Counted from the first letter of the whole stretch, positions 8,969-14,272 are shown. The stretch is DNA of 61,549 nt, filler included, from Collodictyon triciliatum (GCA_043381765.1; 10 parts of 10 records of this genome joined end to end with filler, not necessarily neighbours in it), one strand, 5' to 3'. Program-made: numbers and translations. Notes: generated from the sequence alone by a model not told the origin.

Positions 8969-11900
8969 TTAAGCTGAGACTTTCTGTCTCCACTCAGCTC
9001 CTTTCTCGGTGTCCTTCTCAACACCCCATCCATTCTTGTAGCATTCAGCCATCATCTGAGCCTGGAACTTTGTGGACTTATTTTTCTCACAATAGGCAGC
9101 AAAGTCCGCATCAAAGGAAGCAGCACCGATTGAAAGTAGAAGGGATTTGTTGTATCGACTCAATCCTGCGACATTTCTGATTTGGATGTCTCCACCTTGC
9201 AGCTTTCTTGGGCCGATAATCTGGACTGTCTTTACATCTTGGATTCTGTTGGTATCAATCATGTTCATCGCATCACTTGTTCTGTTAAATACTGCGATGA
9301 ATTCGTCTGGCTTTTCTTTCCTGACAAGGTATTTTCCTTGGGTGTAGGTCACTTCTGATTTTTGCAGACTGTGTGTTTGGTTTCCTGAGGCTATATCCCA
9401 AATACGTATTGTGTTATCATAACTTCCAGAAGCCAACCAATTTTCACCATTCGGTCCTTGAATAGTGCAAACACTAGTGACAGGCCTTGTATGACCTTCT
9501 AATGTTTTGACTTCGTTTCCAGAGGCTACATCCCAAATACGTATTGTTTTATCAGGACTTCCAGAAGCCAGCCAGTTTTCACCATTCGGTCCTTGAATGC
9601 TGCAAACACTATTGACAGTCTCAGTATGACGTTCTAATGTTTTGATTTGGTTTCCTTCGGCTACATCCCAAACACGTATTGTGTTATCTCTACTTCCAGA
9701 AACCAGCCAATTTTCACCATTCGGTCCTTGAACGATATAAACACTCAAGACAGTCTCAGTATGTCCTTCTAATGTTTTGATTTGGTTTCCTGTGGCTACA
9801 TCCCAAATACGTATAGTTTTATCATCACTTCCAGAAGCCAGCCAATTTTCACCATTTGACCCTTGAATACTGCAAACACTCCTGACATAATCTCCATGTC
9901 CTTCTAATGTTTTGATTTGGTTTCCTGTGGCTACATCCCAAATACGTATTGTTTCATCATAACTTCCAGAAGCCAACCACTTTTCACCATTCGGCCCTTG
10001 AATACTGCAAACACTTTTGATACCATACGTATGTCCTTCTAATGTTTTGATTTGGTTTCCTGTGGCTACATCCCAAATGCGTATTGTTGTATCATCACTT
10101 CCAGAAACCAGCCAACTCTCACCATTCGACCCTTGAATACTGCAAACACTATAGATATAATTTGTATGACCTTCTAATGTTTTGATATGATTTCCTGTGG
10201 CTACATCCCAAATGCATATAGTTTTATCATCACTTCCAGAAGCCAACCACTTTTCACCATTCGGCCCTTGAATACTGCAAACACTTTTGATACCATATGT
10301 ATGTCCTTCTAATGTTTTGATTTCGTTTCCTGTGGCTACATCCCAAATACGTATTGTTTTATCATGACTTCCAGAAACCAGCCAATTTTCACCATTCGGT
10401 CCTTGAATACTGCAAACACTATAGATATAATTTGTATGACCTTCTAATGTTTTGATATGATTTCCTGTGGCTATATCCCAAATACGCATTGTTTTATCAT
10501 CACTTCCAGATGCCAGCCATATTTCACCATTCGGTCCTTGAAAACTGCAAACACTCATGACATAGCTTGTATGACCCTCTAGTTCATCATGAAGAATTCC
10601 TAATTTCACACTATTCATATTCGCATTATCAAAAACACAATCACCAAGCATCGAATTCGTGAAATCAACACCATCCAAGTTGGCACCAGTGAGATTTGCA
10701 CCATCAAGGATTGAGTTACTGAGATTCGCATGTGGAATTTTGATGTTTGATAAATCCATTCCACCAAACGAAACATTCATTAAATTCAAAAGTGTGATTC
10801 CATCAGATGCAGCCTTCGATTTGCTCTCATCAGTCTTTGACATGTAGACAATTCTGAATAACGATGCAATGATTTGCTCAAGATTCCATTCCTCATCTAG
10901 TTTTGCATCATCAAGAGTTTCACAGATGAATTCCTTGACTCTTGTAAACTCGACAGACTCTTTGTTGATTCCGATTTCTTTTGAATGGACGGACAAGTAT
11001 TTGCACGAGTTTAATGTTCTGGAGTGAATCCATCCGAGTTTATCAGCGAATCTTTCTCTCATCTCAGCCCAGAATACCACTGCTTCGTTGTGCTGCATCA
11101 GTTCCTTGTAAATCTTGTCGATTTCCTCACAGCTGTTGCATATTGCAAGATAATCCATGGAGTAAAGCTTTCTGAATAAATGAATCAGCGTTCTGTAAAG
11201 CTGAATGAGTGTTTCATGCTCTTTCTTGTCATTCATGAGTCGGATAATGTTGTCAATCTGTGGGCCATCTTTCAGTGATATGATTGTCTTCGTCTCCTTT
11301 CTGATAGCAGCTGCCTTCTGGAAGTACTCAACGACTTGGTCCAATCTAAATGCATGCATATTAGTTTTATTTATTCATGTTTTTTATAACTATTAATAAT
11401 AATAATAATCGATTTTTTAATATAAAAGAGAAATCACCTTTTCAGCTCAAAGTTTGTTCTGCCAACATTCTCAAGAGAAGTCGCATAATCTGCATGCTTT
11501 TCGCCCAGTGTTCTCACGCGAATATCCTTCGTCTTTGCATACGCCTCCAAAGCACCCTTAAAACTACGATAATATGGGTAAATACATTATTCTTTTCAAT
11601 TAAATATATAAATATAATTCATAAAGAGATACTCCTTCAAATCATGGCTGATGTCTCCAATCATTTCATAGCAGGCCACAACATTCGGATGATTTTCACC
11701 AAGGGCAGACATGAAAATATCCAGTGATTGCTTTAGTGAGGATAAGGCCTCACTTTTCCTATATAAGATAGTAATTTGATATTTATTTAATTGATTATAT
11801 TATATAATAAAATTAACTCCAAATAGAGTCCATACAATGAAAGATATGATGCCAAATATATTTTGCAAAAATTGATATAGAAAAATTATTGTTGTATGAA

Positions 11901-14272
11901 AATAATCTAAAATCGATAGAACCGAACTTTTCGCTGGCAAGATGAACACTTGCAATAAACTGGATTGTCGAGGCAACAGATGCATGCTTGGCTCCAAGCG
12001 ATTTTTCAAGGATTGATTTCGCTTTTTTGTAGTTTTCAATAGATTCTTCATACCTCGGTGATTCAATCATATTAATATTTCTCAAATTATAAGTAGATTT
12101 AAAACCAGTTAAATGGATGAATATGCTACTTTTTCCCAGCCAGAGAGACATGGCCGTAGTTCTGGTACGATGTTGCGACAAGAGGATGCTCGTTTCCGAC
12201 TTTCTTTTGGCGGATTTCCATGGCCTTTGTGTATTCAACCAGAGCTTCCTCATTCCTATCATAAAAAATTGATCAGCATACTTATATATTTACAAAATAA
12301 AGGCAGAATGTTAAAGAATATAAATAATCAAATATTACTTTGACTGCTTCACGTATATGTCTCCGAAACGGTCATGTGATTGGGCCACTTGCAGGTCGTT
12401 CTCGCCCAGCTGTTTGACTCTAAAGTCCAGTGATTTCTTGTATTCATCAAGAGCTTCATCGATTCTGTTTCATAAAAATTTTTTAGAATAATTCCTTTTT
12501 GAAACATTATTCATAATTTATTTTACGATGGAAGAGAGCCTTACTTGTCTTGTTGCTGGTAGATAATTCCCATCTCTTCATGAATGGTGGCAATACGCAG
12601 GAAATTATCTGCATTTTTCTCAACTAAATCGAGACATTTCTTATAGTAGACCATGGACTCAGCCCAGCTGTTTAATTTATTTTTATTTTAGAAAAGTTTG
12701 CATTATAAACATCATGTCATGTCCTAATTATATCATTAATGTTTTTATATTTTTTTACTTTTGAAGGTTCTTGTAGACACGACCAAGATTAAGGTAATCA
12801 GCCGACTTCGCATCTATGAATTAATAGATTATTGAATGTCTTCATAGATATCTAATCTTCACGACATACATTAATCATCAAAAAATAATAAATTTTATAC
12901 CTTCTGTTTGATGCTTTCCAAGACGCACATTCAGAACAGATAACAAGAACGTGTTCTCAAAAGACTCCAAGAAAAATCCAACCAGCAGGTCTCCCACATT
13001 ATCCAAAGACTGAAAATAATAATAATTAATAGATAAATCATGATTAATAATTTAATTCGTGAGTGGTAGCCTTCAAAAAATTAAAATTAAATAATAAAAT
13101 ACCTTAGCCAAGCTTCCATACGCATCCTTGTAGTTTGCCGCCCCACTTGCGTTGATTGCTCTCCAGCATGTAAAGAACTCGTAGCGATAGCGACCACCGA
13201 GCATGATGCTGATAACCTATAAAATACAAAAATTAATAAGTGAAAGACATTTCATTGAGTGAAAAAAATTAAATAAAAATAAAAAATTACATGTTTTTGC
13301 TTCATGTATTCCACAAGCAAGTCAAACGAACTGCCCTTCAGAAGCTGGTAGCAAATCTCAGCAGCAAGCTCCTCATCCACATCAACAGCCTCAGAATACT
13401 GGCCAAACAGCCATTTTCCGTATTTTTCGTGCGTTTTTTCCATCTCCTGGTTTTCGGAGAAGTATACCTTTTCGGTGGTCTCCAGTAGCAGCTGGTGGAA
13501 GTACATGTATCTATGATAGACAATAGTTAGCTTTACATCCAAAATAAATTGTACCGAAAGCACCGATTAACGAACGAAAAGGATGAGAAATAACACTAAC
13601 CTTCCATTGCGGACGAAAAGCGACTCGATGAGGGTAAAGAAGAAGGATTTCCTATTTGAATGAATGAAAGATAATTTAAATAAAAAATGAGAAAAGAGAA
13701 AGAGTTAGCCTATTCATTCTATTAAAATTCAATACTAAGTAAACCATTCAGCAAGCTCAAATCCTGTGCCAATCGCATCTTTCATGTACTTGTCCAGGTC
13801 ACCTTCACTAAGGCCAATGCGGGAGACAAAGAGAACCTTCATCGAGAGGGATACGTACTCGACCTTCATTGCCTCTTTTCCATCAGACGTGGCGACTGTA
13901 CAATTAAGATAAGTATTCAACAAAAATAGCTATTATAATTTGAATTATTTTTTTTTATGAAATATGTACAATCAATACTCACCTTTCCTGTCAAACTTCA
14001 GTTGCCAGCGCTTGATAATGAGAGTGTAAAGCTCAATGACGCCGTTGGTTGAAAGCAGCGTAAACAGTTCATCGTCAAGCTTCTCATAGACTCCAAAGAC
14101 CCTGACTTCATCCAGAATAATGCGGAGATAGAGTGGATGGCCTAGGATAAAATTTCAGATAATGAATAACTAATCAATCCTTATATGATTTAATAAAAAT
14201 ATACACTCTTATGATAATGCCTCACCAGTATCCTCCAGGTCAGCCAGAATCATTGCAACTTGCTTTTCGTTC
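8969..14272 (-). CDS. Multi-exon STAND/NACHT-like (NPHP3/TEP1-type helical region) - TPR - pentapeptide - 9xWD40 - Sel1 protein; 5' end truncated
   Basis: Upstream exons give HPLYLRIILDEVRVFGVYEKLDD, VSRIGLSEGDL and YMYFHQLL, resembling post-NTPase helical domains. Six TPR exons (12667-11438) splice in frame to a terminal exon 11345-8969 carrying pentapeptide, WD40 and Sel1-like motifs. The P-loop itself is not in the window. Confidence 0.8.
9368..10582 (-). repeat. Nine tandem 135-nt (45-aa) near-identical WD40 repeats
   Basis: Consensus LEGHTxxVxSVCSIQGPNGENWLASGSxDxTIRIWDVATGNQIKT; DNA period is 135 nt. Confidence 0.95.

What the first reader, a model, noticed from the sequence alone, without database searches (positions are those of the whole stretch)
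11438..12667. One TPR repeat per exon: six consecutive symmetric phase-2 cassettes in an NLR-like gene
Seen: minus-strand exons 12667-12545 (123 nt), 12464-12339, 12255-12130, 12053-11928, 11758-11633 and 11563-11438 (each exactly 126 nt, 42 aa). Each starts and ends in phase 2 at the same position of the TPR motif, so any cassette can be skipped, duplicated or swapped without a frameshift. Known: one-repeat-per-exon organisation underlies exon shuffling in brown-algal (Ectocarpus) NB-ARC-TPR and LRR-ROCO genes. Inference: a modular sensor-diversification mechanism in this protist. The cassettes are divergent from one another, so the duplications are not recent.
Basis: partly seen in the sequence, partly recalled or inferred. 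Interest (0 to 1): 0.8.

Follow-up and report, generated by a model that had tools for sequence, protein, structure and literature searches.

The report
Fixed one-TPR-per-exon array in protist receptor
Six equal-sized exons each encode one period of a helical repeat in a truncated immune-receptor-like gene of a freshwater protist, but this layout looks like an old, frozen duplication and not a working device for generating receptor diversity.

Summary
The six minus-strand exons (123 nt, then five of 126 nt) have GT-AG borders, form one open frame and are flanked by seven phase-2 introns. Spliced RNA contigs from four public runs join them at the predicted sites for 7 of 7 introns. Each exon encodes one 42-aa KLC-type TPR period. 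The intron falls inside the hairpin, so an exon holds helix B of one repeat and helix A of the next.

The gene lies on a ~7-kb contig and loses its 5' end, with the NTPase domain, at the contig edge. Its closest relatives are Diphylleia rotans transcripts with CH-DUF4062-NACHT-TPR-pentapeptide-WD40 architecture.

The proposed diversification mechanism is not supported:
- Cassettes are 20-37% identical, and their introns are no more alike than shuffled sequence.
- No pseudo-exons were found.
- 3 of 3 full-architecture relatives keep six colinear cassettes with no 42-aa indel.
- Transcript isoforms differ only by terminal truncation at cassette borders.

Variation lies instead in the intronless WD40 array: 9 to 19 units, 84% nt identity between units, with hypervariable columns. 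I rate this a new member of a known kind, of modest interest.

The parts
14273..14372 (.). 100-nt spacer (44 N + TTAATTAATTAA + 44 N) that ends the contig. The gene is cut here, and sequence beyond it (a Ufd2/E4-like gene) is a different contig.
   Evidence: One search lists nine identical spacers about 7.17 kb apart. One search shows the sequence.
14226..14272 (-). Exon a, 5'-truncated by the contig end. It belongs to the post-NTPase arm.
   Evidence: Aligns to P0124 from residue 831 and to P0125 from residue 368.
13983..14141 (-). Exon b, carrying the conserved 'HPLYLR..LDE.RVFG' arm motif of NACHT/NPHP3-like STAND proteins.
   Evidence: 78 library proteins at E<=1e-3. One search shows the motif in the family consensus. 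An RNA contig spans 13983-14142 joined to 13744-13895 (table 8).
13745..13895 (-). Exon c. The donor was moved to 13745 (GTTTAC) to remove an in-frame stop.
   Evidence: RNA joint 13650>13744 (cut +1) in X1, X2 and X19.
13601..13651 (-). Exon d (51 nt).
   Evidence: RNA joints 13510>13601 and 13650>13744.
13291..13510 (-). Exon e (220 nt), arm region.
   Evidence: Ungapped alignment to P0124.
13103..13216 (-). Exon f (114 nt).
12901..13009 (-). Exon g (109 nt).
   Evidence: The D. rotans isoform P0207 diverges at the equivalent border.
12759..12813 (-). Exon h (55 nt): helix A of the first TPR hairpin. The intron after it is the first phase-2 cassette intron.
   Evidence: RNA joint 12667>12759, exact, CT..AC, in X1, X2 and X14.
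12545..12667 (-). TPR cassette 1 (123 nt, 41 aa, phase 2-2).
   Evidence: The 41-aa length is shared by P0124 and P0213.
12339..12464 (-). TPR cassette 2 (126 nt, phase 2-2).
   Evidence: TPR_12 E 5.9e-4. Joints.
12130..12255 (-). TPR cassette 3 (126 nt, phase 2-2).
   Evidence: TPR_12 E 1.1e-5 and TPR_10 profile positions 19-41. Joints.
11928..12053 (-). TPR cassette 4 (126 nt, phase 2-2).
   Evidence: TPR_12 E 4.5e-5. Joints.
11633..11758 (-). TPR cassette 5 (126 nt, phase 2-2).
   Evidence: TPR_12 E 7.7e-5. Joints.
11438..11563 (-). TPR cassette 6 (126 nt, phase 2-2).
   Evidence: TPR_12 E 2.3e-5 and TPR_10 profile positions 18-42. Joints.
10778..11345 (-). Start of the 2377-nt last exon: helix B of the seventh TPR hairpin, then about 190 aa of further helical hairpins.
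   Evidence: The AF2 model of P0001 shows helices across residues 11-198 (mean pLDDT 78).
10601..10777 (-). Pentapeptide-repeat segment (beta-helix).
   Evidence: PF00805 E 4.1e-11, 42.7 bits against a cut-off of 20.2. Bacterial pentapeptide proteins were the only hits. The model shows a 5-residue strand periodicity.
9368..10582 (-). Nine intronless WD40 units of 45 aa (135-nt tandem repeat) with high internal conservation.
   Evidence: TRF reports period 135, 8.9 copies, 86% matches. Pfam WD40 E 3.9e-91. Unit table and dN/dS.
8969..9367 (-). C-terminal ~132 aa with a weak Sel1-like motif, and the stop codon (8969-8971).
   Evidence: Sel1 scores 19.3 bits against a cut-off of 30.7. The tail is conserved in P0124.

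Best explanation
The six exons are the fixed product of ancient tandem exon duplication inside the TPR arm of a NACHT-clade STAND ('NLR-like') gene. They are spliced constitutively.

A founder unit of 126 nt plus a phase-2 intron was multiplied early in the history of this gene family. The unit encoded helix B, the G-x-x-H-P linker and the next helix A. Only a 3n-long exon with symmetric phase can survive such duplication, which explains the uniform geometry. Since then the copies have diverged and become positionally individual. Their number and order have been kept among the closest relatives.

The protein (inferred) is a tripartite STAND switch. It has N-terminal adaptor or effector domains and a NACHT-type NTPase; both are missing from the window but present in relatives. 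A helical arm follows, then a composite C-terminal sensor: seven TPR hairpins, more helical hairpins, a short pentapeptide beta-helix, a WD40 array and a Sel1-like tail.

I infer that the TPR arm is a conserved scaffold or autoinhibitory element. Present-day diversification happens in the intronless WD40 array, through unequal recombination or concerted evolution with hypervariable surface positions.

Shown: exon geometry, splicing, homology, colinearity, WD40 repeat statistics. Inferred: the duplication history, the role of each repeat block, and the receptor function itself.
For: - Geometry and phases.
- Splicing of adjacent exons at 7 of 7 flanking introns.
- Old age: cassettes are 20-37% aa and 44-59% nt identical. 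Intron pairs are 55-81% identical on global alignment, against 64.4 +/- 8.7 (maximum 87) for shuffled controls.
- No cassette-like remnant in introns, on the other strand, or elsewhere in the window.
- Fixity: window residues 82-820 align to P0124 902-1640 without any gap (739 aa, 47%). Residues 80-570 align to P0213 132-622 without a gap, and P0214 shows only 1-3-aa indels. 6 of 6 cassettes best match their positional partner in P0124.
- A family-wide, old intron position: in three more distant D. rotans paralogous genes (about 33-38% identity to the window gene), 3 isoforms end and 1 diverges exactly at a cassette border. Each keeps the junction residue, as phase-2 intron retention predicts.
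- The borders map to 3-residue loops between helix A and helix B in a confident model of P0129 (pLDDT 88.9, pTM 0.76).
- Family: DUF4062 + NACHT/NPHP3_N/nSTAND1 + TPR_10/12 in 7 of 7 relatives scanned for at least the NTPase part. P0124 has CH, DUF4062 and a NACHT-like domain. The best PDB fold match is a STAND-TPR protein, 6mfv_A (E 5e-12).
- Variation lies elsewhere. WD40 unit counts are 9, 19, 12 and 11 in the four proteins, with internal aa identity of 0.76 in the window gene against 0.39, 0.22 and 0.21. Six hypervariable WD columns give dN/dS 2.9 against 0.32 for the rest.
Against: - The comparison set is small: three full-architecture relatives, all transcripts from one species.
- No genomic paralogue could be fetched, so exon structure in the relatives is inferred only from four intron-retention-like isoforms.
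- More distant DUF4062-NACHT-TPR paralogues carry 5 to about 6.5 periods. Cassette number has therefore changed at some time in the family.
- Only 15 of 80 RNA joints were listed, so rare skipping isoforms could be among the 65 unseen.
- One listed joint inside the array (12027>12140, X1 and X2) is unexplained.
- The cassettes are less conserved against P0124 (41%) than the pre-TPR arm (61%). This is compatible with some adaptive change in the TPR surface.
- The dN/dS contrast in the WD40 array is inflated, because the columns were chosen by their variability.
- The NTPase domain of this very gene has not been seen.
Confidence: 0.7

Rival explanations
1. Alternative splicing of cassettes. Because every cassette is 3n long and phase 2-2, the cell skips or combines them to make receptors with different TPR arms from one gene. 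This has been proposed for brown-algal NB-ARC-TPR genes.
For: The arithmetic holds. PMC11378527 cites Teng et al. 2023 for alternative splicing of NB-TPR genes in brown algae (passages only). 65 of 80 joints were not listed.
Against: All 7 cassette-region joints listed that are compatible with splicing connect neighbouring exons. None of the 15 listed joints skips a whole cassette. In 10 of 10 comparisons among 17 D. rotans isoform proteins from 7 clusters, the differences are terminal truncations and never internal 42-aa indels. Positional individuality of the cassettes is conserved at 47% identity, which argues that each position has its own role.
Confidence: 0.1
2. Ongoing germline exon shuffling of the Ectocarpus type. 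Cassettes would be gained, lost and exchanged within and between paralogues by recombination in the introns, continually remodelling the TPR arm.
For: The unit length is the same as in Ectocarpus, 126 nt. The family is large: 590 and 510 contigs of X1 and X2 were laid on the stretch at >=85% likeness. Period number differs between distant subfamilies, from 5 to about 6.5.
Against: No cassette pair is more than 37% aa identical. Introns are not alike beyond the shuffled control. There are no inactivated cassettes in introns or on the opposite strand, unlike Ectocarpus. Order and number are identical in 3 of 3 closest relatives.
Confidence: 0.1
3. Graded truncation by regulated intron retention. 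With phase-2 introns that start GTAA, GTAG or GTGA, failure to splice after cassette n puts a stop one codon later. The product is a receptor cut after n TPRs and lacking the pentapeptide and WD40 parts, for instance a decoy or a constitutively open form.
For: 5 of 7 cassette-flanking introns of the window give a stop after one codon if retained. The D. rotans transcriptome holds 4 ORFs from three genes that end or diverge exactly at cassette borders (P0132, P0204, P0205, P0127).
Against: All 14 introns of the gene hit a stop within 1-38 codons when read through, so nothing is specific to the cassettes. GTAA and GTGA donors are ordinary. Unspliced pre-mRNA fragments are common in short-read transcriptome assemblies. 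There is no protein or polysome evidence.
Confidence: 0.07

Closest known systems
[quoted passage not shown] 2012, PMC3341825; Teng et al. 2023, seen only as cited in PMC11378527)
   Same: A STAND NTPase gene whose TPR arm is built from exons of exactly 126 nt / 42 aa, one period per exon, with lengths that are multiples of three.
   Different: The NTPase of the relatives here is NACHT/NPHP3-like, not NB-ARC. PF00931 was absent from the hits of the 7 relatives scanned and from the P0124 N-terminus. The lineage differs: the nearest relatives are Diphylleia rotans, in CRuMs by recalled taxonomy, not stramenopiles. There are no decayed cassettes in introns and no sign of shuffling. A pentapeptide segment and WD40 blocks are added. 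The paper describes each exon as a 34-residue TPR plus linker, whereas here the intron lies inside the hairpin. Whether the intron positions are homologous could not be tested: figures and supplements were not seen and no algal DNA was on hand.
NPHP3-like DUF4062-NACHT-TPR STAND proteins (Pfam NPHP3_N, TPR_NPHP3, TPR_10/TPR_12)
   Same: The post-NTPase arm motif and the KLC-type 42-aa TPRs. Relatives carry DUF4062 + NACHT/NPHP3_N + TPR_10/12. The fold of P0129 matches a solved STAND-TPR protein and the KLC and LGN TPR domains.
   Different: The window copy lacks the NTPase part because the contig ends. Its subfamily adds CH at the N-terminus and a pentapeptide segment, WD40 and a Sel1-like tail at the C-terminus. 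TPR_NPHP3 scores stay far below the Pfam cut-off of 100 (15.6 bits and lower; 24-92 bits). No function is known.
Fungal NWD/HNWD NLRs (het-e, het-d, het-r) with high-internal-conservation (HIC) WD40 repeats (PMC13449251, passages)
   Same: A NACHT-type receptor with an intronless WD40 array. The units are highly alike (84% nt, 76% aa) apart from a few hypervariable columns. Unit number differs between relatives.
   Different: Units are 45 aa with a 'GPNGE' insert. Identity is at the low edge of the 80-100% quoted for HIC. The WD40 block sits behind TPR and pentapeptide blocks. No population data exist, and selection has not been properly tested.
One-repeat-per-exon LRR arrays (brown-algal ROCO 72-bp phase-2 exons; gonadotrophin-receptor LRR exons, as described in PMC11378527)
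   Same: Symmetric phase-2 exons that each encode one solenoid repeat. This is taken as the trace of exon duplication.
   Different: The repeat type and gene family differ. In this window the LRR arrays themselves are intronless 345-nt tandem repeats.

Membership tests
Cassette-exon TPR arm of a STAND receptor (Ectocarpus NB-ARC-TPR type) | Each 42-aa TPR period is encoded by its own 126-nt exon, with symmetric phase | tested here: met
   Five exons of 126 nt and one of 123 nt. 7 of 7 flanking introns are phase 2. The splice joints are seen in RNA contigs.
Cassette-exon TPR arm of a STAND receptor (Ectocarpus NB-ARC-TPR type) | NB-ARC (PF00931) nucleotide-binding domain | tested here: not met
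   The domain is not in the window because the contig ends at 14272. The relatives that align to the window's 5' part show NACHT, NPHP3_N and nSTAND1 and no NB-ARC hit.
Cassette-exon TPR arm of a STAND receptor (Ectocarpus NB-ARC-TPR type) | Traces of shuffling: decayed cassettes in introns, recent duplicates, variable number or order between close paralogues | tested here: not met
   No remnant was found. Cassette identity is at most 37% aa, and introns are like shuffled sequence. 3 of 3 relatives are colinear, and the best matches are 6 of 6 on the diagonal.
Cassette-exon TPR arm of a STAND receptor (Ectocarpus NB-ARC-TPR type) | Alternative splicing of cassettes | tested here: inconclusive
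   None of the 15 listed joints skips a cassette, but 65 joints were not shown. 10 of 10 isoform comparisons in D. rotans show no internal 42-aa indel. No long reads were available.
NACHT-clade STAND NTPase, NPHP3-like (DUF4062-NACHT-TPR) | P-loop NTPase domain with Walker A/B of NACHT type | not testable with these tools
   The 5' part of the gene lies beyond the contig end. In the relatives P0125 and P0129, NACHT scores 27.5 and 35.4 bits against a cut-off of 26.7. In P0124 it scores 25.3, just below.
NACHT-clade STAND NTPase, NPHP3-like (DUF4062-NACHT-TPR) | Conserved post-NTPase arm, homologous to that of family members | tested here: met
   The exon b peptide finds 78 proteins at E<=1e-3, with best long hits at 57-78% identity. 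Window residues 4-301 align to P0125 368-654 at 58%. The motif is in the 36-sequence consensus.
NACHT-clade STAND NTPase, NPHP3-like (DUF4062-NACHT-TPR) | C-terminal KLC-type 42-aa TPRs (TPR_10/TPR_12) | tested here: met
   5 of 6 single exons hit TPR_12 at E<1e-3. The colinear array of P0124 scores 136.5 bits for TPR_12.
HIC (high internal conservation) WD40 NLRs of fungal NWD type | Repeat units nearly identical to one another (80-100%) | tested here: inconclusive
   Mean pairwise identity is 84% nt (range 78-94%) and 76% aa over 9 units. This meets the mark at nucleotide level and is borderline at protein level.
HIC (high internal conservation) WD40 NLRs of fungal NWD type | A few hypervariable positions under diversifying selection; polymorphism in repeat number | tested here: inconclusive
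   Six columns have >=4 residues, with dN/dS 2.9 against 0.32, but the columns were picked by variability. Unit number is 9 to 19 among relatives. No population data exist.

The most novel reading that the evidence does not exclude
The 126-nt, phase-2 TPR cassette is an ancient, transferable exon module. Under this reading, the same unit builds the TPR arms of NACHT-type receptors in this Diphylleia-like (CRuMs) protist and of NB-ARC-type receptors in brown algae. The exon structure of KLC-type TPR arms would then be homologous across eukaryotic supergroups and across STAND clades. It would still be used in this lineage for occasional cassette gain or loss (5 to about 6.5 periods among subfamilies) and for rare skipping or truncation isoforms.
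Probability: 0.15. Interest if true: 0.65.

Novelty: new member of a known kind. Interest (0 to 1): 0.35.

Why it matters
One-repeat-per-exon arrays in STAND receptors have been used to argue for exon shuffling, alternative splicing and even somatic diversification of immune-like receptors in brown algae. This is a second, RNA-supported case. It has the same 126-nt TPR unit but comes from a distant, poorly sampled protist lineage and from a different NTPase clade.

In this case the cassettes are old, positionally fixed and constitutively spliced. So cassette geometry alone is not evidence of a diversification mechanism. The same gene also carries an intronless WD40 array with high internal conservation and a few hypervariable columns. 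That pattern is tied to specificity in fungal NLRs, and the WD40 array is the more promising place to look for receptor diversification in this organism.

If the intron positions proved homologous with those of brown algae or of animal NPHP3/KLC genes, that would bear on how old these introns and TPR modules are.

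Tried and rejected
- no whole genome is held for this window, so no genome-wide census of 126-nt phase 2-2 exons was possible.
- a search with the first 260 residues of the last exon returned only bacterial pentapeptide-repeat proteins (285 at E<=1e-3, covering 15-45% of the query). No paralogue was found.
The first found no relative. The second returned 80 loci with generic WD40 matches at 38-49% identity. 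None was a close relative and none was used.
- the 480-aa kinase ORF at 47693-49132, used to try to pin the organism, gave no hit at E<=1e-3. The organism is therefore not established. That the closest relatives of this gene are D. rotans transcripts is the only lineage clue.
- there are no earlier notes on this genome or sequence.
- all 19 runs that hold part of the stretch hold only 5-10% of its sampled words. I draw no habitat or strain conclusion from the runs I did not lay.
-, joints inside the WD40 array (skips of 1299, 787 and 945 nt; 945 = 7 x 135). I rejected these as evidence of repeat-number isoforms, because k-mer contigs collapse near-identical repeats.
-, odd joints: 12027>12140 (TG..AG, one extra letter, net 35 nt short of the spliced form), 13428>13566 and 13632>13751. 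These were not explained. They are probably misaligned paralogue contigs.
- Teng et al. 2023 (Plant J) is not held. What I say about it comes from citing passages in PMC11378527.
- Supplements of PMC3341825 (exon tables) were not seen, and figures are not held. They may state the intron position within the TPR motif.
- Positional matching of cassettes against the distant paralogues P0202, P0206 and P0209 was uninformative, because consensus-like cassettes win everywhere.
- The AF2 model of the last exon has pTM 0.49. I used only its secondary structure. No geometry of the hypervariable WD positions was computed.
It was corrected and sent again.

Full report
**Observation.**
- Exon 12667-12545 is 123 nt. 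Exons 12464-12339, 12255-12130, 12053-11928, 11758-11633 and 11563-11438 are 126 nt each.
- Each follows an AG and precedes a GT. Joined, they give one open frame in a single register.
- In a 15-exon model of the gene, all 7 introns that flank the six exons are phase 2. The other 7 introns have phases 1, 1, 2, 2, 0, 0, 1.
- Exons are 39-51% GC and introns 15-33% GC.
- The six peptides align in one register with a single 1-aa gap, in the 41-aa first cassette.

**The window is a chain of contigs.** The window consists of pieces of about 7.07 kb. They are separated by nine identical 100-nt spacers of 44 N, TTAATTAATTAA and 44 N.
- The gene lies on the piece 7195-14272 and runs into its end. Its 5' part, including any nucleotide-binding domain, is not in the window.
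- The sequence beyond the spacer reads, by my own motif reading, as a Ufd2/E4-like gene. It belongs to another contig, so neighbours across spacers are not evidence of synteny.

**RNA support.** No run holds more than 10% of the stretch's sampled words. Laying the contigs of four runs at 85% likeness placed 590, 510, 15 and 164 contigs.
- Of the 590 contigs in X1, 83 are at least 99% alike. The rest look like alleles or paralogues of a large family.
- The 15 listed joints include one for each of the 7 cassette-flanking introns.
  - Four match to the base: 12667>12759, 12254>12338 (+1), 12050>12127 (+3) and 11757>11927 (+1). All have CT..AC ends, which is GT..AG on the minus strand.
  - Three skip the predicted net length but carry 1, 4 or 6 substituted letters at the junction: 11562>11633, 11347>11444 and 12464>12551.
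- Five of the 7 occur in runs on record as RNA (X14, X19). Two occur only in X1/X2, whose RNA nature is a guess.
- Two upstream introns are confirmed as well. One of them corrected my donor for exon c to 13745.
- None of the 15 listed joints skips a whole cassette. Sixty-five joints were not shown.

**What a cassette encodes.** Five of the 6 exon peptides match Pfam TPR_12 (E 1e-5 to 6e-4), always from profile position 19-22. Three match TPR_10 from position 18-19 to 41-42. An exon therefore starts at helix B of one TPR and ends after helix A of the next.
- A model of the relative P0129 is confident (36-row alignment, mean pLDDT 88.9, pTM 0.76). Its two cassette borders, known from truncated isoforms, are 530/531 and 655/656. 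Both lie in three-residue loops between helix A (514-527; 637-652) and helix B (531-549; 656-673).
- The array has seven hairpins. The first helix A is in the 55-nt exon 12813-12759, and the last helix B opens the 2377-nt final exon.
- 'One TPR period per exon' is correct. 'One TPR hairpin per exon' is not.

**The rest of the gene.** The last exon (P0001) continues with four blocks:
- about 190 aa of helical hairpins (secondary structure only; pTM 0.49);
- a pentapeptide-repeat segment (PF00805, E 4e-11, above the cut-off);
- nine WD40 units of 45 aa, which form a 135-nt tandem repeat;
- a tail with a weak Sel1-like motif (19.3 bits, below the cut-off).

**Relatives and family.** An exhaustive search of 1.84 billion representatives with the 52-aa exon b peptide gave 78 proteins at E<=1e-3.
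- Nine of the ten best hits that I looked up carry or cluster with names. Eight of these clusters are Trinity transcripts of Diphylleia rotans from EukProt.
- The spliced window protein was built only inside scripts. It aligns over residues 1-1265 to P0124 (2619 aa) at 46%, and to P0125 at 58%.
- The relatives carry DUF4062, a NACHT/NPHP3_N/nSTAND1-type NTPase and TPR_10/12.
- P0124 adds a CH domain at the N-terminus. It shares the pentapeptide, WD40 and Sel1-like parts.
- A further search found two more D. rotans proteins of the same architecture, P0213 and P0214.
- The best PDB fold match of P0129 is the STAND-TPR protein 6mfv_A (E 5e-12), followed by LGN and KLC TPR domains.
- 'NLR-like' is therefore justified by homology. 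The clade is NACHT/NPHP3-like, not NB-ARC, and the NTPase of this copy is unseen.
- The organism itself is not established. A kinase ORF from another contig of the window found nothing.

**Is the layout a diversification device?** The evidence points the other way.
1. The cassettes are 20-37% aa and 44-59% nt identical. The seven introns are 55-81% identical on global alignment, against 64.4 +/- 8.7 (maximum 87) for shuffled controls.
2. tblastn with the six cassettes finds only the cassettes themselves. There is no remnant in introns, on the plus strand or on other contigs. Ectocarpus, by contrast, has inactivated TPR exons in its introns.
3. Window residues 82-820 align to P0124 902-1640 without a single gap. 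Residues 80-570 align to P0213 without a gap, and P0214 differs by 1-3-aa indels only. So 3 of 3 full-architecture relatives have six cassettes, and two of them share the 41-aa first cassette.
4. Each of the 6 window cassettes is most similar to its positional counterpart in P0124: 12, 17, 18, 15, 18 and 24 identities on the diagonal. Against three distant paralogues the matrix is uninformative.
5. In 10 of 10 pairwise comparisons among D. rotans isoforms, the differences are terminal and never an internal 42-aa indel.
6. Three truncated isoforms (P0132, P0204, P0205) end, and one (P0127) diverges into an intron-like tail, exactly at a cassette border with the junction residue kept. Phase-2 intron retention predicts exactly this. 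It shows that the same intron position and phase exist in paralogues only 33-38% identical to the window gene.

Against a wholly frozen picture, two points stand. Distant subfamilies have 5 to about 6.5 periods. The cassettes are also less conserved against P0124 (41%) than the pre-TPR arm (61%).

**Where the gene does vary.** The WD40 block is intronless. Its nine units are 84% identical in nucleotides (78-94%) and 76% in residues.
- Six columns hold four or more different residues. They give dN/dS 2.9, against 0.32 for the other 39 columns. This contrast is inflated, because the columns were chosen by their variability.
- Unit counts are 9, 19, 12 and 11 in the window gene, P0124, P0213 and P0214. 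Internal identity is 0.76 against 0.39, 0.22 and 0.21.
- This resembles the 'high internal conservation' WD40 arrays of fungal NWD/HNWD receptors. There, a few hypervariable positions set specificity and repeats are gained, lost and exchanged (PMC13449251, passages).
- Five of the six variable columns fall just before strand A or in the B-C loop of the model's blades. By recalled WD40 topology this is the top face. That step is inference.

**Most likely mechanism.** A 126-nt exon plus its phase-2 intron was multiplied in tandem early in this family. Only a symmetric unit of 3n length survives that process, which explains the geometry. The copies then diverged into seven individual hairpins that are spliced constitutively.
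- The protein is inferred to be a STAND switch. Its conserved TPR arm acts as a scaffold or autoinhibitory element. Its WD40 array is the part that currently diversifies.
- I put this reading at 0.7.
- Rivals: cassette skipping by alternative splicing (0.1), ongoing germline shuffling (0.1), and regulated truncation by intron retention (0.07). For the third, all 14 introns give a stop within 1-38 codons when read through, so the effect is not specific to the cassettes.

**Comparison and novelty.** The closest precedent is the Ectocarpus NB-ARC-TPR family. Thirteen of its 24 genes have 42-aa (126-nt) TPR exons and are read as products of exon shuffling. Alternative splicing was added later (Teng et al. 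2023, known to me only through PMC11378527).
- The same: the unit length and the gene class.
- Different: the NTPase clade, the lineage, the extra sensor blocks, and the absence of every shuffling trace tested here.
- Whether the intron positions are homologous could not be tested.
- My searches for such genes in this lineage found no description. That covers only the held open-access library.
- I rate the finding a new member of a known kind, with modest interest (0.35).

Noticed in passing
window 9368-10582 (-): The nine intronless 45-aa WD40 units of the same gene are 84% identical in nucleotides. Six columns are hypervariable, with dN/dS 2.9 against 0.32 for the rest; the columns were chosen by variability. 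Relatives have 11-19 much more divergent units. This resembles the fungal 'high internal conservation' NLR repeats.
   Followed up: partly
window 7095-7194, 14273-14372, 21449-21548, 28641-28740, 35820-35919, 42989-43088, 50157-50256, 57323-57422, 60394-60493: Identical 100-nt spacers (44 N + TTAATTAATTAA + 44 N) occur every ~7.17 kb, so the window is a chain of separate ~7.07-kb contigs. Several contigs end in microsatellites, for example TTCTTTT at 7003-7094 and TTTTTTG at 21275-21448. Genes on either side of a spacer are not neighbours.
   Followed up: yes
window 36071-39045 and 40771-42931 (+): Two long intronless open frames (1265 aa, and more than 800 aa after a 548-N gap at 39907-40454) are made of 345-nt tandem repeats, 83-85% alike. 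Each repeat encodes five 23-aa leucine-rich repeats by motif reading (not run through Pfam). This is a second repeat-sensor-like gene type whose array grows inside an exon, not by cassette exons.
   Followed up: no
window 14373-~16600 (-): A multi-exon gene fragment on the next contig reads like the core of a ubiquitin conjugation factor E4 (Ufd2). This is my own motif reading and was not tested. It is unrelated to the receptor gene despite appearing to be adjacent.
   Followed up: no
window 12027-12140, 13428-13751 (RNA contigs of X1/X2): Three joints in the laid contigs do not fit the gene model: 12027>12140 (non-canonical ends, 35 nt short of the spliced form), and 13428>13566 together with 13632>13751. 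They are probably misaligned paralogue transcripts, but this was not resolved.
   Followed up: no
window 47630-49135 (+): A single-exon 501-codon open frame encodes a kinase-like protein (by motif reading) with an N-terminal hydrophobic segment. It found no relative at E<=1e-3 among proteins of 264-840 aa in the word-indexed library.
   Followed up: partly
D. rotans proteins P0132, P0204, P0205, P0127, P0207: These transcriptome isoforms of three paralogous genes stop or diverge exactly at TPR cassette borders, and one at the border before the first helix A. This shows that the phase-2 intron positions are shared across the family. In the window, 5 of 7 cassette-flanking introns would give a stop after one codon if retained.
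   Followed up: yes
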